Below, one piece after another: positions 23,472 through 51,441 of a DNA stretch of 54,070 nucleotides (its first letter is position 1; each line of letters opens with the position of its first letter). The notes under the pieces are model-generated. The model did not search any database. It worked only from the letters and a program-made list of their open reading frames with translations, and was not told where the DNA came from. Source of the DNA: an uncultured Pyrinomonadaceae bacterium (GTDB lineage: Bacteria > Acidobacteriota > Blastocatellia > Pyrinomonadales > Pyrinomonadaceae); assembly GCA_965365505.1 (NCBI GenBank), contig CBDUBY010000001.1, forward strand, positions 1-54,070, written 5' to 3'. Made by a program: the position numbers and the translations under genes.

Positions 23472-24350
23472 TCATTCGGCGCGAATGGTCAGCACCGCAA
23501 TCTCCGGCGGCACGAGAAACCGGAACGGCAAAATGCTCGTGCCTATGCCCGTGGTGACGAACATATCAACATTATTTTCCTTTAGATGTCCGAAAGCATA
23601 TCGCTGTCCATAATTGGACGGAACAAATGGCGAGCCGATAATCGGCAGCCAGACTTGTCCGCCGTGGGTGTGTCCATTGATAACAAGCTTTAAATCTGAT
23701 TGATTCGGCATAGCCATTTGGATTAAATATAAAAGATCGGGACTGTGTTCTAAAACAATTATATCGCCGGCTTGCTCAACGTTTTCCAAAGCACTTCTGA
23801 TTTCTCTTGAAAAACCATCCTGAGTTTTGATTTCCATATGGTCTTTCACGCCTAAAATACGCAGCTTTTGTCCGTCTTTTTCGATAAAGGCGACTTCGGT
23901 TTGCAATACCTGATAACCGACGCGCTTGAATTCGGCGGCAATTTCATCGCCGCCGTGCCAAACATCGTGATTACCTAAAACAACGAAAACTCCATACTTT
24001 GCTCGAAATCCGCGAAGATTGTCGGCGATGATCGCCACCGCCATTTTGAGTTTCTTTCGGTCGGCATCTTGCTGCGAAACATAATCGCCGATCAACACGA
24101 TAATATCCGCGTTTTGCTCGTTTGTTTTCTCGACGATTTGCCGGAGTTTTTCTTTCGTCACACCGTTTGAGCCGCCGTGAATATCGGAGATGGCAACGAT
24201 TTTCAAATTATCAAAAGCCGGATTCCAATTTTTTATTTTGATAACAGTTTCGTTGATGACCAGCCGATTAGGTTCGATAAAAAAAGCGTAAGCCAACATC
24301 AACAATCCCAAAATGAAGACAACCGCGATAATCGGCAAATACTTTTTCAT
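23472..24350 (-). CDS. membrane-anchored metallophosphoesterase (YaeI-like)
   Basis: [17 protein letters not shown] and GHTHGGQ motifs, with an N-terminal TM helix. Confidence 0.88.
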
Positions 24351-33119: not shown

Positions 33120-33566
33120 TTACTCGCCGATGTCTTCGTTCCAAATCTTCGGGTTTTCCCTGATATAATCGCCGAGCATCTTTTTACATTCCGGCGAATC
33201 GAGATTGACAACTTTCACTCCATTTTCTCTCAGCCATTCGATTCCGCCGTCAAAATTTTCGGTCTCGCCGACGATGACTGTGCCGATTTTGAATTGCCTG
33301 ATTAACCCCGAACAATACCAGCACGGCGCGAGCGTCGTCGCCATAATCGTCTGTCGGTAATCGCGCTGCCGCCCGCTTTTGCGAAACGCATCGGTTTCGC
33401 CGTGAATCGAAGGATCGTTTTCCTGCACACGACGGTTGCGACCGCGACCGAGCAAATTTCCCGAAGCGTCAAAAAGAGCCGCGCCGATTGGAATGCCGCC
33501 TTCGGCTAAACCGATTCGTGCTTCTTCAATCGCCACGTCTAACATCTGGTGAAAGTTTTCGTTCAT
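33120..33566 (-). CDS. CDA-fold cytosine deaminase, yeast Fcy1-type
   Basis: HGETDA (H-x-E zinc/catalytic motif), TLAPCWYCSG (PCxxC), and the C-terminus ENPKIWNEDIGE closely matching yeast Fcy1 ...WFEDIGE as I recall it. The ATG overlaps the upstream stop (ATGA at 33563-33566). Confidence 0.8.
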   Translation of the reverse strand: MNENFHQMLDVAIEEARIGLAEGGIPIGAALFDASGNLLGRGRNRRVQENDPSIHGETDAFRKSGRQRDYRQTIMATTLAPCWYCSGLIRQFKIGTVIVGETENFDGGIEWLRENGVKVVNLDSPECKKMLGDYIRENPKIWNEDIGE

Positions 33567-34315
33567 AAATTTTTCAATCTAATGCGAATCAGCAAATCGT
33601 TCAAATCATTTTTAGCGTTCGCCGCATCCGGCAAATCGCTTCGCTGCATTTCCTTTTCCAATTCAGCGACCAGCCGTTCGTATTCTTTCTGGTAAAAATT
33701 CAAATCTGCGCCGGGCAAAATGTCGCGTTCCGCGCCGGATGTTTTGCGCTCAATCAATTCGGGCACGTAAGGCAGATTAAATTTCTCGTTCAGCTTCGGC
33801 AGATTCGCTTCGATTTCGCCCGTTTGCATCAGATTGATGCCGGTCAGAAGCACGCGAAGGATATACAGCAGCGGCTTGACGCGCGGCTGCGGTTCTTTCG
33901 AGAAAAGTTTCCATTCGGTTTTGGCGAACCCGAAATAATGATGCGCGTGATAGCGCGTGATACACCGCTTGCCGATGCTTTTTAACTCGTCGTGTTCCGG
34001 CGTAGTCAGCACAATCAGCGGCGAAAACAGTTGTTCGAGAACATAACCGTTTTTCTTGAGCATCAGCGCGAAAAACTTCCTCGCGTCGTGCGTCACCAAA
34101 TCGAGTTCCAATCCGTCACGAATCTCCTCAACCTGAACCGTCTCGCGCCCGACATCCAACCCGACGACATCAGCCAGCGGCAAAACGTGAACGCCGCGCA
34201 AATCATAATCCGAATCCGCCGACGGAAATCCGTAAAGATGCGCCCCGCTGACAGTCGCAAAAACTAGCGGAAAAGGATGTTCGAAAGCTATTTGTTTGAG
34301 CTTTTCTTCGATCAT
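33563..34315 (-). CDS. Pol-beta-superfamily nucleotidyltransferase, YcgL/PF10127-like (paralogue 1)
   Basis: FPLVFATVSGAHLYGFPSADSDYDLRGVHVLP matches the GSHLYGFxSxxSDxDxRG signature I recall for B. subtilis YcgL-type proteins. Start set at ATG 34315, 1 nt after the upstream TAA. The track start at 34351 would overlap by 35 nt. Confidence 0.7.
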   Translation of the reverse strand: MIEEKLKQIAFEHPFPLVFATVSGAHLYGFPSADSDYDLRGVHVLPLADVVGLDVGRETVQVEEIRDGLELDLVTHDARKFFALMLKKNGYVLEQLFSPLIVLTTPEHDELKSIGKRCITRYHAHHYFGFAKTEWKLFSKEPQPRVKPLLYILRVLLTGINLMQTGEIEANLPKLNEKFNLPYVPELIERKTSGAERDILPGADLNFYQKEYERLVAELEKEMQRSDLPDAANAKNDLNDLLIRIRLKNL

Positions 34316-34316
34316 T

Positions 34317-34778
34317 TTAATCTCTAAGTCTTGAGTTCCAACCGCGTTCAAGCGAAGCTTTAAATTCTTCTGGCGTTTCCAGCGAAAGCCAGTAAAGATA
34401 TGTTTTTCCTCTTTGCTTTGCTTCTTTATCCAATGGTTCTGCTAACAGTGACTCAACTTCTTTGCGAACTTGTTCAATACCTACAACTTCCGCAAAATAC
34501 CAAGGAAGTTCTTCTATACTCACATCCCAATTTTTCAGTGAAAGTCTAATATCTTCGCGCAAATTTCTATTGTATTTAGGTTTCAATTTCCACAATAGCC
34601 CACCTGCCGCTGCTTGATAGGGATATAAATTATCAAGAAAGAAAATTTCAAGAAGCCCTTCAAGAACAATATCAGAGTCCTCTTTTTTCAATCTGAGCAT
34701 TAGATGGCGAACACCTTGCCAAGCATTCTGTCCGCCCACAACTTTTATTAATTCAAGTCTTATTTGTTCTGGTTTCAT
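34317..34778 (-). CDS. hypothetical helical protein (AT-rich insert between the two NTase genes)
   Basis: 153 aa, predicted helical, no recognisable family. Hand-counted lines give about 32-38% G+C, against about 55% for a neighbouring NTase line. Confidence 0.6.
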   Translation of the reverse strand: MKPEQIRLELIKVVGGQNAWQGVRHLMLRLKKEDSDIVLEGLLEIFFLDNLYPYQAAAGGLLWKLKPKYNRNLREDIRLSLKNWDVSIEELPWYFAEVVGIEQVRKEVESLLAEPLDKEAKQRGKTYLYWLSLETPEEFKASLERGWNSRLRD

Positions 34779-34781
34779 TTT

Positions 34782-35717
34782 CTAAACAACTGACCGTCTG
34801 GCTCGAATCAAAAACTCATTCGCCCTTTTGTAATCGGAATTTTCCGGTAAATTCGTTCGGGCGAAGGCTTCGTCAAATTCCCTGTGCAGATTGACGCGCC
34901 ACTCGTTGACTTCGCGCCATTCGAGTTCGGCGTTTTTTATCGCCAGCAGTTTCGGGCGATGTTCGGCGGTGACGCGCACGATTAAATCAGCTTCGCGCAG
35001 AATTTCGATGCCCTGCACGAGCAGTCGTATCAAGTGCATCGCGTGTTTCCATTTAACCGTGCCGGCGGTGCGCAAATCCTGTTCGAGCTTTTTGAACTGC
35101 GACATCACATAGCCGTTGTAAGTTTGATAAACGAGCTTCGACAAAAAGATTTGCCTGATCGAAAGCAGCTCGGCGGCAAGCTCGCTTTGGTATTCGACGA
35201 GCGGCGTGAAAAGACATTCCAAAATATTCGGATTCGCTTTGAGCGCGAGCGTCAGAAACTTTTTCAATTCCCAGTAACATTCTTCCGTGTCTTTGTTCTC
35301 AAGCTGTTCCGGCACGCCGAACAAAGACCAATGCACATCGGCGGGCGGCAGATAAATCCCGCGTAAATCGGTGTCGGAATTCTCATCGTCCAGCCCGAAC
35401 GCCTTTGAACCGACGACGCAGCGGTAAATCACGAAATCATACAAATCGAAGTCTTCGAGCGGCGAAATCAAACCGCTCTGCTCGGTCTGAAATTCCTTGC
35501 GAATCGAAAAACTTTTACGGTTCGCCATCGCGCATCTGCCGTCGGGAAACTCGATTTTGTAGGCATGAAAAGCATCGGCTGGTGTTTCAACGACTTTGCC
35601 GACCGTTCCCTTCGCGTAAAAAGAATTTTCGTTAAAGACTTTTGTTTCGTTGAGCAGAACAATCTGCGTCCCTTTCGGAATTATCAGATTAAAATCCGTG
35701 TCTTTCGCATTTTTCAT
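34782..35717 (-). CDS. Pol-beta-superfamily nucleotidyltransferase, PF10127-like, with extra N-terminal beta-rich domain (paralogue 2)
   Basis: VIYRCVVGSKAFGLDDENSDTDLRGIYLPPADV gives the same G[SG]...D-x-D-x-RG signature. About 95 additional N-terminal residues (IIPKGTQIVLL...GTVGKVVETP...YKIEFPDGR). Confidence 0.7.
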   Translation of the reverse strand: MKNAKDTDFNLIIPKGTQIVLLNETKVFNENSFYAKGTVGKVVETPADAFHAYKIEFPDGRCAMANRKSFSIRKEFQTEQSGLISPLEDFDLYDFVIYRCVVGSKAFGLDDENSDTDLRGIYLPPADVHWSLFGVPEQLENKDTEECYWELKKFLTLALKANPNILECLFTPLVEYQSELAAELLSIRQIFLSKLVYQTYNGYVMSQFKKLEQDLRTAGTVKWKHAMHLIRLLVQGIEILREADLIVRVTAEHRPKLLAIKNAELEWREVNEWRVNLHREFDEAFARTNLPENSDYKRANEFLIRARRSVV

Positions 35718-39244: not shown

Positions 39245-39303
39245 AAAAACAGGAAACGGCACGAAAAAGAATTGAATTTTTCGTGTCGTTTCCTGTTTTT
39301 TTT
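39245..39303. terminator. bidirectional intrinsic terminator (about 20-bp stem) between proS and the uvrC-like gene
   Basis: AAAAACAGGAAACGGCACGAAAAA-gaattgaa-TTTTTCGTGTCGTTTCCTGTTTTTTTT. Confidence 0.9.
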
Positions 39304-39307
39304 GTGG

Positions 39308-40846
39308 TTAATGATCATTCATTTTCGATGAATTCGGTTTTTCAATTTTTCGGCGGCTGTTTTTCGTTTTCAGAATAATTTCTCCTGCCTGGGTCATTGA
39401 ACGAATCGGCGACAAATCTCCGGCGTTGCCGCCGCGTTCGGCATACCGCGTCGGGACGAGCAGGTATTTTACTTGCGGCGTAGTTTCGTTATTAGAGAAA
39501 ATCTGGACGAGCGAATGCAGTTCGCGGTGCGTTTCGTTGGCGAGCGTGTGCGCCGCGTCGCGCAGACTTTGCAGGAAATTCATTGCCGCCGAACGCCGGT
39601 CGAATTCGATGCGCGAATTTTTCCGGATTAGAAAATGACTGATTTGATTGTGCGCTCGCGGCGGTTTGACCGCGCCGATGACGGTTAAATTTTCCAAATC
39701 AAACGCTGCAAAATTTTTTTCCGCCGCATTGATTTGCGGTTTCGCGCCGTCCACGATTACTAAATCAGGCAAATCTTTTTTCGCGGGCAAAAGACGCAGC
39801 CGTTCGCTGACGGCGGCAGCGAGCGCGGCGGTTTCCGAGAGGTTTTCAAATTCCCAGACCAAACCGTCTTCTCTTTGCAAAACACCATCGGCGGCAATGA
39901 CGCGGGCGGCGACGATTTCTTTGCCCGCTAAGTGCGCGACATCGAAACACTCGATGCGGCGCGGCGGTTTGCGCAATCCGAAGAGGATTTTAATTTCTTC
40001 GAGCAATTCGTTTTTTCCGGCGGTTGATTGACCTTTTTTATAATTGAAAGCGTGCGGCGCGAGCGTCTGTGTTTTGGCGATTGACGGCGGCAATCGGTCG
40101 GGCAGTTGAGCGACGATTTTTATTTTATGTCCGAAGTCTTCGGTTAATTTGTTTTCTAAAGATTTCCTTTCGGGAAAATCAAGCGGCACGAAAATTTGTT
40201 TCGGCGCATAAAAACGATAAAAGTTTCGGATAAAACCGGCGATGCTTTTTTCATCAACCGCGTCGCCTTCTGTTTCAAAATTTAATCTGCCGACCGACTT
40301 CCCGCGCCGCAAAGTTGTTACATAAATTCTCGTCGTATTTTCCTCGCGGCTCAGCGTGATGACATCGTTCATCTTCGAAACGTGAACTTGCCATTTGGCG
40401 TTGGCGGCGATTTCTTCAATCGTCAATCTGATGTCGCGCCATTCGGCAGCCGATTCGTATTCGTAATTTTCGGCGAGCATTTCAATTTTTCGGTCAATCT
40501 TCGTTAAAGCAAGTTCGGTTTGATTCGATAAAATTAAATGAACGATTTCGACCGATTCGAGATAAGTCGGGCGGTCGCAAATCGAAGCGACGCACGGCGC
40601 GAGACAGCGGTGCAAAAAGTATTCGGGACACGGCGCGTCAAAGTCGCCGCGAATATCGAGTTCGCACGGGCGCAGGCGAAAAGTTTTCGCCAGTAAATCG
40701 AGCATTCGCCGCACCATTCCGGTCGGCAAAAACGCGCCGTAAATGTTTTGTTCGGGCGTTTTGTTTTCCGGTCGGCGCGTGATTAAAAGACGCGGGAATT
40801 TTTCGTCCGTTGTGAGTTTTAGAAATGGATAACTTTGATTTTCCAT
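39308..40846 (-). CDS. UvrC paralogue lacking the N-terminal GIY-YIG nuclease and C-terminal (HhH)2 domains
   Basis: It aligns by eye to E. coli UvrC from about residue 90. Shared motifs are NQSYPFLKL..FPRL, the Cys-rich RPC...APCPEYFLHRCLAPCV, a UVR-like YEYESAAEWRDIR, and the C-terminal RNase-H-like nuclease motifs ECFDVAHLAG, DLVIVDGAKPQ and LRDAAHTLA. No GIY-YIG and no GIG/HhH motif are present. Start is ATG 40846, or 40864 inside the repeat arm. Confidence 0.75.
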   Translation of the reverse strand: MENQSYPFLKLTTDEKFPRLLITRRPENKTPEQNIYGAFLPTGMVRRMLDLLAKTFRLRPCELDIRGDFDAPCPEYFLHRCLAPCVASICDRPTYLESVEIVHLILSNQTELALTKIDRKIEMLAENYEYESAAEWRDIRLTIEEIAANAKWQVHVSKMNDVITLSREENTTRIYVTTLRRGKSVGRLNFETEGDAVDEKSIAGFIRNFYRFYAPKQIFVPLDFPERKSLENKLTEDFGHKIKIVAQLPDRLPPSIAKTQTLAPHAFNYKKGQSTAGKNELLEEIKILFGLRKPPRRIECFDVAHLAGKEIVAARVIAADGVLQREDGLVWEFENLSETAALAAAVSERLRLLPAKKDLPDLVIVDGAKPQINAAEKNFAAFDLENLTVIGAVKPPRAHNQISHFLIRKNSRIEFDRRSAAMNFLQSLRDAAHTLANETHRELHSLVQIFSNNETTPQVKYLLVPTRYAERGGNAGDLSPIRSMTQAGEIILKTKNSRRKIEKPNSSKMNDH

Positions 40847-40850
40847 TATT

Positions 40851-40955
40851 CGGAACGCCGACATCTTGTCGGCATTTTGCTTTGGAAAAGCGAGTATATT
40901 TTTGCAAACTGAATCTCGGAGTAACGCTCATTGCCGACAAGATGTCGGCGTTCCG
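40851..40955. repeat. split copy of the double-hairpin palindromic element (variant GCCGACA arms, 57-nt insert)
   Basis: CGGAACGCCGACATCTTGTCGGCA (40851-40874) and its reverse complement TGCCGACAAGATGTCGGCGTTCCG (40932-40955). Confidence 0.9.
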
Positions 40956-40957
40956 AG

Positions 40958-42562
40958 TTAGCTGTCGGCTTCAAGCATTTGATGAATCGCGTCGAGCGTG
41001 TCGGCATCTTTCGGCAACTTATCCTCGCGCCATCTCAAGATTCGCGGGAAGCGCACGGCAACTCCTGATTTGTGGCGCGTGGATTTTTGGATGCCTTCAA
41101 AGCCGAGTTCAAAAACAAGTTTCGGTTCAACGCTTCGCACGGGTCCAAAAGTTTCGAGCGTGTGGCGGCGCACGAAATTATCCACGCGGCGAATCTCCTT
41201 GTCGGTCAAACCCGAATACGCTTTGGCAAACGGCACGAGTTCGCCGTTCGACCAAACGGCGAAAGTGTAATCGGTGTAGAGACTGGCGCGTTTGCCCGTG
41301 CCGCGCTGCGCGTAAATCATCACCGCGTCAACGGTCAGCGGTTCGATTTTCCATTTCCACCAATCGCCGCGCGGACGACCGACGCGAAACGGCGAGGCGA
41401 GCCGTTTGAGCATAAAACCTTCGACTTTGCGACTGCGGCTTTCCTCACGAATTTTTGCTAAATCTTCCCAACTTTCGGCTTCGACGGTCGGATAATAAAT
41501 TAAATTTTTCTTTGCTTCGTCAGGCAGATTGTCCAAAATTTCAATCATCTTCGCGCGTCTGAAACTCAACTCTTTCTGGCGAATATCTTCGCCTTCAAAT
41601 TCGAGCAAGTCGTAACAAAGCAATACGACCGGAACTTCTTCCAACAATTTTTTGCCGACGGTTTTGCGCCCGATGCGTCTTTGAAGCTGCGCGAACGGCA
41701 TCACCGCATCGTTCATCCAGGGCAAAATTTCGCCGTCCAAAACCGTGCCTTCGGGTAAAGCGAAACTCGCGTTTGTGATTTCAGGAAAACGCTCGGAAAC
41801 CAAATCTTCGCCGCGCGACCAGAGAAAACTTTCGCCGCCGCGCCTGATGAGTTGCGCTCTGATGCCGTCCCATTTCCACTCGGCTTGCCAGTCTTTGATG
41901 TCGCCCAATTCTTCGAGCGGAAAATCCAATTGATGCGCCAGATGAAACGGATACGGGCGCGACAAATCCGCGTCTTCACTCGATGCTTCCAATAAATTCA
42001 AATAAAAATCGGCGGTCGGCGACCAGGTTCCCATCAAACGATGCGCGATAATTTCCTTTTCGATTCCCGAAACTTGCGCCAAAGCTCTGGTTACGAGAGA
42101 TTGCGACACGCCGACTCGAAAACTGCCCGTCACCAATTTGTTCCAAACGAAACGCTCATTCGCGTCGAGTTCGTTCCACGCCTGAGCGACCGCTTCGCGC
42201 TGTTCGGTTTCGTCCAATCCGCGTAAAGGAACAGTTCGATTTTCAACCCAGTAAGCCAGCGGCAATTCGCTGCCCGTCGCGTTCGTATCAGGCAAAAGCA
42301 GCGCAATCGTTTCGCCCAAATCGCCGACGGCATCATAGGAAAGTTCAAACAGCCAATCGGGAATCTCCGAAATCTCCGCCGCCCACATTCTAAGTTTCGC
42401 CGTCGGAATAATCTGACGCGGTTTGCGCCCGCTCAGAAAATAAATCGCCCACGCCGCGTCCGCCGCGTCCGCGTTTTTGAAGTATTCGACTATCGCCTCG
42501 ACTTTTTCGTTGGTCTTATTCGTCTGGTCGAGCGCAAGATATAAATTGGTGAATTTTTTCAT
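40958..42562 (-). CDS. ATP-dependent DNA ligase (ligase-associated DNA damage response cluster type)
   Basis: Motif I adenylation lysine in AEWKWDGIRAQL (KxDG), an EGFMLKR-type motif, and a C-terminal OB region. 534 aa. Sits directly after the MBL-fold exonuclease gene. Confidence 0.85.
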   Translation of the reverse strand: MKKFTNLYLALDQTNKTNEKVEAIVEYFKNADAADAAWAIYFLSGRKPRQIIPTAKLRMWAAEISEIPDWLFELSYDAVGDLGETIALLLPDTNATGSELPLAYWVENRTVPLRGLDETEQREAVAQAWNELDANERFVWNKLVTGSFRVGVSQSLVTRALAQVSGIEKEIIAHRLMGTWSPTADFYLNLLEASSEDADLSRPYPFHLAHQLDFPLEELGDIKDWQAEWKWDGIRAQLIRRGGESFLWSRGEDLVSERFPEITNASFALPEGTVLDGEILPWMNDAVMPFAQLQRRIGRKTVGKKLLEEVPVVLLCYDLLEFEGEDIRQKELSFRRAKMIEILDNLPDEAKKNLIYYPTVEAESWEDLAKIREESRSRKVEGFMLKRLASPFRVGRPRGDWWKWKIEPLTVDAVMIYAQRGTGKRASLYTDYTFAVWSNGELVPFAKAYSGLTDKEIRRVDNFVRRHTLETFGPVRSVEPKLVFELGFEGIQKSTRHKSGVAVRFPRILRWREDKLPKDADTLDAIHQMLEADS

Positions 42563-42626: not shown

Positions 42627-43673
42627 TCACCCGTTTTCATCTGTGGACAATATCTCTTCTTCGTCAACCTTTAATTTTTCCATCTCCGGCGAATCGCCGA
42701 CGAATTTAGTTTCGAGCGGACGAGCATCTTTGCCGACGCTTTTTAAGTATTTGACAACCGTGTCAATACTGCCGTGCGTCACCCAGATTTGTTCGGCTTC
42801 GGTGGCGTCAATCGCGGTCATTAGTTCTTCCCAATCGGCGTGGTCAGACAAAATTATTCCGCGGTCAACCGCGCGGCGGCGACGCGCTCCGCGAATCCGC
42901 ATCCAGCCCGACGCAAAGCCGGTTGACTGGCTGCCGAATCTTCGCGTCCAAGGCGTGTCCTGCGCGGACGGCGGCGCGATAATCAGCGAGCCGATAAAGT
43001 CTTTTTTATTTTCAACTTCACCGACATACGTCGTCGGCGGAAGTTCAACGCCTATTTCACGGTAATCTCTGGTTAATCTTTCAACCGCGCCGTGCGTGTA
43101 AATTCGTCCGATTGAACGGTCAACGCTTTTCATAATCCTTTGCGCTTTACCCAAAGAATAAGCGAAAATCACCGTCGCTTTTCCCTTCTCGACATTGCCG
43201 CGCCACCACTGATTAACTTCTTCAAATAAAATCTCCGGTTTCGTCCAGCGGTAAATCGGCAGCCCGAACGTGGCTTCAGTGATAAAGGCGTGACATTTGA
43301 CCGGCTCAAACGCGGCGCACGTCGGGTCGCAGGTTAATTTATAATCGCCGCTCGCCACCCAAACTTCGCCTTTGTATTCGACGCGAACTTGCGCCGAGCC
43401 GAGAACGTGACCCGCCGGATGCAACGAAACTTTCACGCCGTTAATTGTCGTGGATTTGCCATATGGAAGCGTTTCGATATTTCCTTCGTTATAAAGCCTG
43501 GTGCGAAACAGCAGTTCGCCTTCCTTACTGACCAGATAATTTTTCGAGCCGCGATAAGTGTGGTCGGCGTGTGCGTGAGTTAAAACCGCGCGCGTCACAG
43601 GCAGCCACGGGTCAATATAAAAATTGCCGGGTTCGACGTAAAGACCGCGTTCGGTTGGTTTAATAAGTCGCAT
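42627..43673 (-). CDS. metallo-beta-lactamase/beta-CASP-like exonuclease (ligase-associated DNA damage response EXO)
   Basis: THAHADHTYRG (HxHxDH), with later GDY...ATFG and SDHADW motifs. Real start is MRLIKPTERG (ATG 43673), because the track's N-terminal extension is a translated palindrome. Confidence 0.75.
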   Translation of the reverse strand: MRLIKPTERGLYVEPGNFYIDPWLPVTRAVLTHAHADHTYRGSKNYLVSKEGELLFRTRLYNEGNIETLPYGKSTTINGVKVSLHPAGHVLGSAQVRVEYKGEVWVASGDYKLTCDPTCAAFEPVKCHAFITEATFGLPIYRWTKPEILFEEVNQWWRGNVEKGKATVIFAYSLGKAQRIMKSVDRSIGRIYTHGAVERLTRDYREIGVELPPTTYVGEVENKKDFIGSLIIAPPSAQDTPWTRRFGSQSTGFASGWMRIRGARRRRAVDRGIILSDHADWEELMTAIDATEAEQIWVTHGSIDTVVKYLKSVGKDARPLETKFVGDSPEMEKLKVDEEEILSTDENG

Positions 43674-43679
43674 AATTTC

Positions 43680-43731
43680 GGAACGCCGGCATCTTGCCGG
43701 CAAACATTTGCCGGCAAGATGCCGGCGTTCC
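43680..43731. repeat. 52-nt double-hairpin palindromic element
   Basis: GGAACGCCGGCATCTTGCCGGCA-aacatt-TGCCGGCAAGATGCCGGCGTTCC, filling the 60-nt gap between two minus-strand genes. Confidence 0.95.
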
Positions 43732-51389: not shown

Positions 51390-51441
51390 GGAACGCCGGC
51401 ATCTTGCCGGCAAACGCTTGCCGGCAAGATGCCGGCGTTCC
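51390..51441. repeat. 52-nt double-hairpin palindromic element (same family as 43680-43731)
   Basis: GGAACGCCGGCATCTTGCCGGCA-aacgct-TGCCGGCAAGATGCCGGCGTTCC. Confidence 0.95.

What the first reader, a model, noticed from the sequence alone, without database searches (positions are those of the whole stretch)
39308..40955. UvrC paralogue without GIY-YIG or HhH domains, appended to an EXO-LIG repair pair and capped by a palindromic repeat
Seen in sequence: the 512-518-aa product aligns by eye with UvrC from the SYPF(I/L) motif (about residue 90 of E. coli UvrC). The alignment runs through the Cys-rich region, the UVR-like motif and the RNase-H-like 5'-incision domain, with catalytic-type residues retained (CFDVAH, DGA, RDAAH). 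The whole N-terminal GIY-YIG 3'-incision nuclease and the C-terminal (HhH)2 are missing. Nothing upstream can supply them, because the ligase stop is at 40958. The 5' end of the ORF abuts or overlaps a 105-nt split palindromic element (40851-40955). Established knowledge: Cho is the reverse case, having GIY-YIG but lacking the C-terminal nuclease. Inference: either this is a dedicated single-incision nuclease recruited to a ligase/exonuclease repair module, or it is a uvrC copy truncated by rearrangement at the repeat.
Basis: partly seen in the sequence, partly recalled or inferred. Interest (0 to 1): 0.65.

Follow-up and report, generated by a model that had tools for sequence, protein, structure and literature searches.

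The report
UvrC paralogue with one nuclease site
This gene is a conserved, working-looking copy of the DNA-repair nuclease UvrC that has kept only one of its two cutting sites and always sits behind a DNA ligase and an exonuclease gene in a group of soil Acidobacteria, which suggests a cut, chew back and seal repair route that has not been described.

Summary
ORF 39308-40846 (-) encodes 512 aa matching UvrC model positions 90-535 of 574. It has no GIY-YIG and no (HhH)2 domain. It keeps the four Fe-S cysteines, the UvrB-type UVR motif and the RNase-H-like DDH triad (D302, D366, H433).

It is not a truncation accident. About 35 clusters (50% identity) form a monophyletic family (200/200 bootstraps). 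In all 22 related loci with upstream DNA the order is exo, ATP-ligase (LigB type), uvrC-like, often with overlapping stop and start codons. dN/dS is 0.13-0.32.

Longer relatives keep an N-terminal GIY-YIG remnant. Its catalytic Lys, Arg and Glu are replaced in 13 of 13, so the 3' nuclease is dead family-wide and was deleted in the window's clade. (HhH)2 was lost stepwise.

The family shares an insertion (VKPP) and a C-terminal tail with canonical Pyrinomonadaceae UvrC, its probable ancestor.

The palindrome is a dispersed REP-like hairpin with three copies in the window. It was inserted between genes that abut in most relatives.

Most likely function (inferred): a single-nick endonuclease that feeds the SNM1-like exonuclease and the ligase.

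Not shown: a canonical uvrC in the same genome, or any activity.

The parts
39308..40846 (-). uvrC-like CDS, 512 aa (stop codon 39308-39310). Domain order: UvrC_M (beta motif plus Cys cluster), UVR-like four-helix region, inactive RNase H1, active-type RNase H2, C-terminal tail. No GIY-YIG and no (HhH)2.
40577..40666 (-). Cys cluster C61, C73, C81, C85 (plus C90). These are the UvrC [4Fe-4S] cysteines and are invariant in 29 family members.
   Evidence: The Fe-S role comes from the literature as cited in PMC10085695.
40403..40510 (-). UVR-like UvrB-interaction motif (IEMLAENYEYESAAEWRD). E131 and A133 are invariant. Pfam UVR is detected in several relatives.
40109..40366 (-). Central RNase-H-like domain (PF22920), the non-catalytic platform domain of UvrC.
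   Evidence: PMC10085695
39539..39985 (-). RNase-H-type 5'-incision endonuclease domain (PF08459). Triad: D302 (39941-39943), D366 (39749-39751), H433 (39548-39550).
39401..39463 (-). Conserved C-terminal tail motif LLVPTRYAERGGNAGDLSPIR. P465, G473, A475, L478 and P480 are invariant. It is homologous to the tail of canonical Pyrinomonadaceae UvrC (DPEGDAEDLQPIR).
40850..40956 (.). Split REP-like palindrome in the lig/uvrC-like spacer. The arms GGAACGCCGACATCTTGTCGGCA are separated by a 57-nt loop. As RNA it folds into a hairpin of -55.8 kcal/mol.
40958..42562 (-). ATP-dependent DNA ligase of the LigB / 'cisplatin damage response' type (TIGR04120, 653 bits).
42627..43673 (-). Ligase-associated beta-CASP/MBL exonuclease (TIGR04122, 475 bits). 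The probable start is ATG 43673.
43680..43731 (.). Compact copy of the same palindrome between the acyl-CoA dehydrogenase stop and the exonuclease start. A variant with compensatory stem changes lies at the same position in L002 and L003.
39249..39296 (.). Bidirectional terminator-like hairpin between the convergent uvrC-like and proS genes.

Best explanation
The gene encodes a conserved, functional paralogue of UvrC, derived from the canonical UvrC of Blastocatellia/Pyrinomonadaceae. In this paralogue the 3'-incision (GIY-YIG) nuclease was first inactivated and then deleted, and the (HhH)2 domain was lost. The Fe-S cysteine cluster, the UvrB-type UVR motif and the RNase-H-like DDH active site for 5' incision were kept. 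It is the third gene of a three-gene operon: SNM1/Apollo-like beta-CASP exonuclease, LigB-type ATP-dependent ligase, uvrC-like.

Proposed mechanism (inferred, not shown): the protein makes one nick on the damaged strand, probably 5' of a lesion or at a single-strand/duplex junction. It may be positioned by UvrB through the retained UVR motif. The 5'-3' exonuclease enters at that nick and degrades through the damaged stretch. A polymerase fills the gap and the ligase seals it. In this lineage the UvrC-like nuclease would take the place that the Lhr-Core helicase and the MPE/PdeM endonuclease occupy in the usual four-gene LigB cluster.
For: Shown.
- Domain content and retained residues. The AF2 model matches UvrC C-terminal-half structures 2NRT, 2NRZ, 8B0Q and 3C65.
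- Family size and monophyly: about 35 clusters at 50% identity score above every canonical UvrC. NJ monophyly is 200/200, and the family is sister to Blastocatellia UvrC in 142/200.
- Synteny: exo-lig-uvrC-like on one strand in all 19 genome loci with upstream DNA. The same order holds in three further loci of members only 33-39% identical to the window protein. In one clade (L010/L348/L349) a 257-aa ORF lies between lig and uvrC-like. A 4-nt stop/start overlap is seen in L017, L141 and L142.
- Purifying selection: dN/dS is 0.13-0.32, against 0.06-0.16 for the neighbouring genes.
- The N-terminal remnant in long members is homologous to GIY-YIG (E = 1e-8 to 2e-5). The catalytic Lys, Arg and Glu are replaced in 13 of 13 long members, and one or both Tyr are replaced in all of them.
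- Shared derived VKPP insertion and tail with canonical Pyrinomonadaceae UvrC.
- No Lhr or PdeM in the window or in the flanks that were annotated.

From the literature.
- LigB clusters normally carry Lhr-Core, MPE and an uncharacterised exonuclease predicted to be SNM1B/Apollo-like (PMC7470946).
- UvrC 5' incision needs the DDH triad, and does not need the UvrB-UvrC interaction once a 3' nick exists (PMC10085695).
Against: - No activity, expression or interaction data exist for any member.
- In studied UvrCs the 5' cut normally follows a 3' cut, and it is reduced or lost without (HhH)2 (PMC10085695). An enzyme lacking both domains may therefore need a different substrate or partner.
- The second acidic position of the RNase H2 domain (DD/ND in canonical UvrC) is SE in the paralogues.
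- dN/dS is 2-3 times higher than for lig and exo, so constraint is looser.
- I could not show that a paralogue-bearing genome also has a canonical uvrC, uvrA or uvrB. The scans were capped.
- The direction and polarity of the exonuclease are predicted only.
Confidence: 0.55

Rival explanations
1. UvrB-independent structure-specific nuclease. The RNase-H-like domain has been retargeted to flaps, gaps, nicks or RNA-DNA junctions produced during LigB/Exo repair. It would stand in functionally for MPE and Lhr, and the UVR-like helices would now serve another partner or only the fold.
For: - The fold is related to EndoV, Argonaute PIWI and RNase H.
- (HhH)2, which anchors canonical UvrC for the 5' cut, is gone.
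- Paralogue-specific changes lie near the active site: SE in place of DD, LAN in place of RFA.
- MPE and Lhr are absent from the cluster.
Against: The UVR motif (FE.AA..RD) is as well conserved as in canonical UvrC in nearly all members. That would be unexpected if UvrB binding had been abandoned.
Confidence: 0.22
2. Dedicated 5'-incision partner of a separate 3' nuclease (canonical UvrC, a Cho-like protein or a stand-alone GIY-YIG protein). This would be a split or back-up NER nuclease, with exo and lig being merely co-expressed.
For: - D. radiodurans UvrC split into N and C halves works in trans, and the C half cuts 3'-pre-incised DNA without contacting UvrB (PMC10085695).
- Canonical UvrC is widespread in the lineage.
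Against: - No GIY-YIG gene lies in the window or within 10 kb of 29 related loci.
- The strict operon linkage is to exo-lig, not to any NER gene.
- A canonical UvrC already supplies its own 5' site.
Confidence: 0.13
3. Non-catalytic adaptor or damage sensor. The protein would use its Fe-S cluster and UVR motif to bring Exo and LigB to UvrB-DNA complexes, with the nuclease site vestigial.
For: - The family already contains one pseudo-nuclease domain.
- dN/dS is relaxed relative to the partner genes.
- One member (P0011) has VVG in place of VDG at the second triad position.
Against: D302 and H433 are invariant, and D366 is conserved in at least 90% of 29 members spanning 33-100% identity. A vestigial site would not be kept this way, especially since the GIY-YIG site in the same proteins decayed completely.
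Confidence: 0.07
4. Pseudogene or assembly artefact: a uvrC copy truncated by rearrangement at the palindromic repeat, or a hidden upstream GIY-YIG segment.
For: - The ORF start abuts a repeat.
- One relative (L016) is frameshifted, and one database protein (P0085) is a lig::uvrC-like fusion.
Against: - The same N-terminus occurs in more than 50 independent assemblies.
- Orthologues without the repeat abut the ligase gene.
- dN/dS is well below 1.
- No GIY-YIG coding potential exists in any frame of the window.
- In L016 the neighbouring acad gene is frameshifted too, which is consistent with sequencing or assembly error (inference).
Confidence: 0.03

Closest known systems
Canonical UvrC (excinuclease ABC subunit C; TIGR00194). 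The nearest are Blastocatellia/Pyrinomonadaceae UvrCs such as P0148 and P0315.
   Same: - UvrC_M region with the four Fe-S cysteines.
- UVR motif.
- Inactive RNase H1 platform.
- RNase H2 domain with the DDH triad.
- The VKPP insertion and C-terminal tail seen in Pyrinomonadaceae UvrC.
- About 31-32% identity over the shared region.
   Different: - No active GIY-YIG: the domain is deleted here and catalytically dead in longer members.
- No (HhH)2 in this clade.
- SE replaces the DD/ND motif, and LAN replaces RFA after the catalytic His.
- Scores below the TIGR00194 cut-off.
- Encoded in an exo-ligB operon rather than on its own.
Cho (UvrC homologue of E. coli, the SOS-induced 3'-incision nuclease)
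   Same: A UvrC-derived paralogue that keeps only one of the two nuclease activities and is thought to extend the range of NER (own knowledge; PMC1839093).
   Different: It is the mirror image. Cho keeps the GIY-YIG and UvrB-binding parts and lacks the C-terminal nuclease. This family keeps the C-terminal nuclease and lacks a working GIY-YIG. No Cho-type operon with a ligase is known.
Ligase-associated DNA damage response cluster (LigB, Exo, Lhr-Core, MPE/PdeM; TIGR04120-04123; Ejaz & Shuman 2018)
   Same: The ligase and exonuclease are clear members: TIGR04120 at 653 bits and TIGR04122 at 475 bits, adjacent and co-oriented.
   Different: The Lhr-Core helicase and the PdeM endonuclease are absent from the cluster and from the 54-kb window. 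A UvrC-derived nuclease is present instead. The papers I could search do not mention this variant.
Eukaryotic XPF-ERCC1 plus SNM1A (incise, then digest past an interstrand crosslink)
   Same: By analogy only: a 5'-incision nuclease paired with a beta-CASP 5'-3' exonuclease. The bacterial Exo is predicted to be SNM1B/Apollo-like (PMC7470946).
   Different: The incision nucleases are not homologous. No biochemical evidence exists here.
REP/BIME-type intergenic palindromes
   Same: Dispersed copies, all intergenic, forming very stable hairpins, with compensatory stem variants between copies and between genomes.
   Different: The sequence is unrelated to enterobacterial REP. No RAYT transposase was looked for. 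Only three copies are visible in 54 kb.

Membership tests
UvrC (excinuclease ABC subunit C, TIGR00194) | N-terminal GIY-YIG 3'-incision nuclease | tested here: not met
   No Pfam GIY-YIG. A lineage-specific HMM finds nothing in the window. Long relatives carry a remnant with the catalytic K, R and E replaced in 13 of 13.
UvrC (excinuclease ABC subunit C, TIGR00194) | Cys-rich UvrC_M region (four Fe-S cysteines) | tested here: met
   PF27096 UvrC_M is precomputed for the family. C61, C73, C81 and C85 are invariant.
UvrC (excinuclease ABC subunit C, TIGR00194) | UVR (UvrB-interacting) motif | tested here: inconclusive
   The motif FE.AA..RD is conserved. Pfam UVR passes only in some relatives, not in the window protein. 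Binding to UvrB was not tested.
UvrC (excinuclease ABC subunit C, TIGR00194) | RNase-H-like 5'-incision domain with the DDH triad | tested here: met
   PF08459 at E = 1.8e-27. D302, D366 and H433 align to Tma D367, D429 and H488. The fold matches 2NRT and 2NRZ.
UvrC (excinuclease ABC subunit C, TIGR00194) | [quoted passage not shown] | tested here: not met
   No Pfam HhH. The HhH HMM finds none in the window, but finds remnants in the long relatives L143, L141, L142, L018 and L144.
UvrC (excinuclease ABC subunit C, TIGR00194) | Score at or above the curated equivalog cut-off | tested here: not met
   239.8 bits against a cut-off of 285.45.
Cho | GIY-YIG nuclease present and C-terminal RNase-H nuclease absent | tested here: not met
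   The architecture is the opposite.
Ligase-associated DNA damage response cluster (TIGR04120-04123) | LigB-type ATP-dependent ligase next to the MBL/beta-CASP exonuclease | tested here: met
   TIGR04120 at 653 bits (cut-off 400). TIGR04122 at 475 bits (cut-off 325). The genes are adjacent on the same strand.
Ligase-associated DNA damage response cluster (TIGR04120-04123) | Lhr-Core DEXH helicase and PdeM/MPE phosphoesterase in the cluster | tested here: not met
   Neither is adjacent here or in the annotated relatives. Ten large ORFs in the rest of the window are unrelated to either. The only metallophosphoesterase in the window is YaeI-like, with a PdeM score of 19.6 against a cut-off of 150. 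Their presence elsewhere in the genome is untested.
REP-like intergenic palindromes | Multiple dispersed intergenic copies forming stable hairpins | tested here: met
   Six half-sites make three elements, against 0 expected. Hairpin energies are -53 to -56 kcal/mol, z = -8 to -11. All copies are intergenic.
REP-like intergenic palindromes | Associated RAYT-type transposase or genome-wide high copy number | not testable with these tools
   Only 54 kb of this genome is available.

The most novel reading that the evidence does not exclude
The exo, ligB and uvrC-like genes form a self-contained bacterial pathway for lesions that dual-incision NER handles badly, such as interstrand crosslinks or cisplatin adducts. 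A UvrB-guided single 5' nick by the UvrC paralogue would be followed by SNM1-like exonucleolytic digestion past the lesion and then ligation. This would be a prokaryotic analogue of XPF-ERCC1 plus SNM1A unhooking. The conserved C-terminal tail shared with the lineage's UvrC would be a docking peptide for a common partner.
Probability: 0.15. Interest if true: 0.8.

Novelty: new variant of a known kind. Interest (0 to 1): 0.6.

Why it matters
- Bacterial UvrC is the textbook two-active-site excinuclease. The only recognised natural single-site derivative is Cho, which keeps the 3' site. This family is the missing mirror image: the 5' site only, with a fossil pseudo-GIY-YIG domain that documents how it arose.
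- The family is fixed in an operon with the LigB ligase and its SNM1-like exonuclease. The substrate and order of action of that pair are an open question (PMC7470946, PMC10140301). A nuclease of known ancestry and predictable chemistry in that operon gives a concrete hypothesis to test: nick, resect, seal.
- It also gives a natural experiment on which UvrC domains are needed for 5' incision.
- Annotation pipelines currently call these proteins either 'excinuclease ABC subunit C' or 'hypothetical protein'. The first name is misleading as to function and the second says nothing.

Tried and rejected
1. Finding a canonical uvrC in a genome that carries the paralogue. None of these attempts gave a same-genome answer.
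- A single-protein genome scan found nothing.
- A scan with a canonical Pyrinomonadaceae alignment returned more than 582 genomes, but the 80 best kept were all high-GC relatives and none of the 21 target genomes.
- A scan with the low-GC 'type A' alignment was swamped by the generic IIY[IV]GKAK pattern.
- Protein searches with P0148 and P0295 list only the top 120 hits.
- P0064 and P0383 share a contig length of 11351, but this proved to be coincidence.
- P0295 and P0298 lie in MAGs outside the target set.

2. Sequencing runs. The best run holds only 7% of the words, so there are no usable reads or RNA-seq data for this organism.

3. Rfam. Only sub-threshold miRNA-like hits to the long hairpins.

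4. PADLOC. No defence-system match for any of the three proteins.

5. Sigma-70 promoter scan. Not above shuffled expectation, so the operon promoter is undefined.

6. Palindrome as an operator specific to the repair operon. Rejected as the main reading, because an identical copy lies between ABC-transporter genes. However, a compensatory variant at the same place upstream of exo in L002 and L003 keeps a cis-acting role possible.

7. Paralogue nested inside 'type B' UvrC. The NJ distance tree does not support this (4/200), although the shared insertion and tail suggest it. Rate acceleration probably blurs the tree.

8. The first tree script timed out.
Full report
What is in the sequence.

The finding's ORF is real. 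It runs 39308..40864 on the minus strand (518 aa), with a second in-frame ATG at 40846 giving 512 aa. NCBIfam's uvrC equivalog TIGR00194 matches at E = 6e-71, but only over model positions 90-535 of 574. The score of 239.8 bits is below the curated cut-off of 285.45. Pfam finds the two RNase-H-like UvrC domains (PF22920, PF08459) and neither GIY-YIG nor HhH.

I built HMMs of the GIY-YIG and (HhH)2 domains from canonical UvrCs of the same lineage and searched all six frames of the window. Neither gave a hit. No hidden upstream or split segment can therefore supply the missing domains.

The 512-aa form is the likely product. Orthologues start at the aligned Met, the public gene call is 512 aa, and the ATG at 40864 lies inside the palindrome.

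The two genes immediately upstream on the same strand are a LigB-type 'cisplatin damage response' ATP-dependent ligase (TIGR04120, 653 bits) and the ligase-associated beta-CASP exonuclease (TIGR04122, 475 bits). A bidirectional terminator-like hairpin at 39249-39296 separates the gene from the convergent proS.

What is retained.

An alignment of 29 family members spanning 33-100% identity shows the following:
- The four cysteines that bind the Fe-S cluster in UvrC (C61, C73, C81, C85) are invariant.
- The UVR-type motif FE.AA..RD is conserved.
- D302 (CFDVAH) and H433 (RDAAH) are invariant, and D366 (VDG) is nearly so.

HMMER alignment to the T. maritima UvrC C-terminal half places these three residues on D367, D429 and H488, the DDH triad. 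An AlphaFold2 model (mean pLDDT 79) finds UvrC C-terminal-half structures 2NRT, 2NRZ, 8B0Q and 3C65 as its best PDB matches.

Paralogue-specific changes are SE in place of the DD/ND motif and LAN in place of RFA after the catalytic His.

It is a family, not an accident.

A word-indexed search returned more than 100 proteins of about 500 aa, from 83% down to 32% identity. All lacked GIY-YIG (PF01541). Those that carry an organism name are Pyrinomonadaceae or Acidobacteriota MAGs. An exhaustive phmmer search of 1.84 billion cluster representatives places about 35 clusters (50% identity) of this type above the first canonical UvrC. That first canonical UvrC is from Chloracidobacterium.

In an NJ tree on 449 columns the family is monophyletic in 200 of 200 bootstraps. 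It is sister to the canonical Blastocatellia UvrCs in 142 of 200.

A scan of GTDB species genomes gave 21 loci with the paralogue. In every one of the 19 that include upstream DNA, tblastn finds exo, then lig, then the uvrC-like gene on the same strand. Three further loci, of members only 33-39% identical to the window protein, show the same order. In L017, L141 and L142 the ligase stop and the uvrC-like start overlap by 4 nt. In one clade (L010/L348/L349) an extra 257-aa ORF lies between lig and uvrC-like.

Pairwise dN/dS among the window and six orthologous loci is 0.13-0.32 for the uvrC-like gene. The values for lig, exo, acad and proS are 0.06-0.16. Selection is therefore purifying, but two- to three-fold looser than on the neighbours.

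One frameshifted copy (L016) lies in an assembly whose neighbouring acad gene is also frameshifted. That pattern is consistent with sequencing or assembly error rather than gene decay.

How it arose.

Longer members (550-670 aa) keep about 90 N-terminal residues that the lineage GIY-YIG HMM recognises weakly (E = 1e-8 to 2e-5). Pfam does not recognise them. I took the six catalytic positions of the UvrC GIY-YIG domain: T. maritima Y19, Y29, K32, R39, E76 and N88 (this residue set is from my own knowledge of Truglio et al. 2005). At these positions the Lys, the Arg and the metal-binding Glu are replaced in all 13 long paralogues examined. One or both Tyr are replaced in every one of them, and only the Asn is kept.

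The 3' nuclease was therefore dead in the common ancestor of the family. The window's clade then deleted the domain cleanly at the YPF/LKLT boundary. (HhH)2 is still recognisable in several long members (L143, L141, L142, L018, L144) and is gone in the window's clade.

The paralogues share two derived features with the canonical UvrC of Pyrinomonadaceae ('type B'). One is a VKPP..H..SH insertion where other UvrCs have AK(R/K)EE. The other is a C-terminal tail (VP.R....G.A.DL.PI, matching canonical TRL.DPEGDAEDLQPIR), often followed by a basic NPF/NPH motif. This points to duplication of a tail-bearing Pyrinomonadaceae UvrC. The distance tree does not nest the fast-evolving paralogues inside type B (4/200).

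The palindrome.

The element in the lig/uvrC-like spacer is one of three copies in the window built on the core GGAACGCCGRCATCTTGYCGGCA (6 half-sites against 0 expected).
- A compact copy fills the spacer between the acyl-CoA dehydrogenase gene and exo.
- Another compact copy lies between two ABC-transporter genes.
- As RNA, each copy folds into a hairpin of -53 to -56 kcal/mol.

In most orthologous loci the ligase and uvrC-like genes are 2-6 nt apart. The 111-nt spacer in the window is therefore an insertion of this element, not a rearrangement scar that created the gene.

Two related genomes (L002, L003) carry a variant (GCCAGC...GCTGGC) at the same place upstream of exo, with compensatory stem changes. 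The hairpin is thus maintained and could affect mRNA stability or translation. I found nothing tying it to repair specifically.

Mechanism.

What is shown is the anatomy: one intact nuclease site of the UvrC 5'-incision type, a retained UvrB-type motif and Fe-S cysteines, and obligatory operon linkage to an SNM1/Apollo-like exonuclease and LigB.

What is known from the literature:
- The LigB cluster normally holds Lhr-Core, MPE and this uncharacterised exonuclease, and its substrate is unknown (PMC7470946, PMC10140301).
- UvrC's C-terminal half can cut 5' of a lesion on 3'-pre-incised DNA without contacting UvrB.
- 5' incision is weakened without (HhH)2 (PMC10085695).

I infer a nick, resect, fill and seal route. 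The paralogue nicks the damaged strand, possibly guided by UvrB. The exonuclease degrades from the nick through the lesion, and LigB seals after resynthesis. Neither Lhr nor PdeM is in the window or the annotated flanks, so the UvrC-like nuclease may replace them here.

The rival readings are a UvrB-independent structure-specific nuclease, a 5' partner for a separate 3' nuclease, and a non-catalytic adaptor. None is excluded. A pseudogene is excluded.

What remains open.

I could not show that a paralogue-bearing genome also has a canonical uvrC. Canonical UvrC is present in more than 582 GTDB genomes of the lineage. Several complete chromosomes that carry it were not hit by the paralogue scan, so the paralogue is probably confined to a subset, mostly low-GC clades with loci of 43-57% GC. 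The capped scans never returned the target genomes. No reads from this organism are available.

I found no paper describing a UvrC paralogue without a functional GIY-YIG domain, or a UvrC-like partner of LigB. Only open-access literature was searched.

Verdict.

This is a new architectural and contextual variant of the UvrC family. It has a clear evolutionary history and a testable mechanism, but a narrow taxonomic range and no experimental data.

Noticed in passing
window 40850-40956, 43680-43731, 51390-51441; L002 7222-7274; L003 7180-7230; L144 10013-10033: A REP-like palindrome family with half-site GGAACGCC(G/A)(G/A)CATCTTG(C/T)(C/T)GGCA, each half itself a 7-bp hairpin. Stem variants (GG/CC, GA/TC, AG/CT) are compensatory. 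In three cases the start codon of the downstream gene lies 5-7 nt after the hairpin (GTTCCGAAATTATG, GTTCCGAATAATG, GTTCCAAATAGTATG). The element also creates spurious upstream in-frame ATGs that lengthen the ORF calls for exo and uvrC-like.
   Followed up: partly
L061-L109 (for example L061 3001-5151); alignment A3: Many canonical Pyrinomonadaceae UvrCs are about 700 aa, not about 610. After (HhH)2 they carry a conserved extension: a variable linker, then TRL.DPEGDAEDLQPIRSVD, then a basic RKRGERSTNPHGVKREK end. They also have a VKPPRRHNEVSH insertion in the RNase H2 domain. The function is unknown. Other Pyrinomonadaceae, including P. methylaliphatogenes K22, lack the tail.
   Followed up: partly
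L349 7298-8071 (= L348, L350, L010): In one clade a 257-aa ORF with no Pfam, NCBIfam or PADLOC match is inserted between the ligase and the uvrC-like gene. It may be a fourth component of the operon.
   Followed up: partly
protein P0085 (643 aa, 2.9-kb NCBI contig): An in-frame fusion of ligase residues 1 to about 292 to the uvrC-like protein from about residue 150 onward. It is either a 1.2-kb deletion allele or a misassembly.
   Followed up: no
L144 16690-18087 (-): An XPB/ERCC3-type helicase (XPB_DRD, ERCC3_RAD25_C) lies about 5 kb downstream of the exo-lig-uvrC-like operon in one MAG. This is a single instance and could be coincidence.
   Followed up: no
window 33563-35717 (-): Two adjacent paralogous ORFs (262 and 311 aa) share a DxDLRG..(L/V)P motif, with a 153-aa ORF between them. 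Neither of the two paralogous ORFs has an NCBIfam match. By eye they resemble nucleotidyltransferase-type proteins.
   Followed up: no
L016 10001-11499 and 6137-7280: Both the uvrC-like gene and the acad gene are frameshifted in this long-read MAG, which points to indel errors rather than gene decay.
   Followed up: partly
window 23472-24350 (-): A YaeI/LpxG-like metallophosphoesterase lies 15 kb from the operon. It is not PdeM: TIGR04123 scores 19.6 bits against a cut-off of 150.
   Followed up: yes
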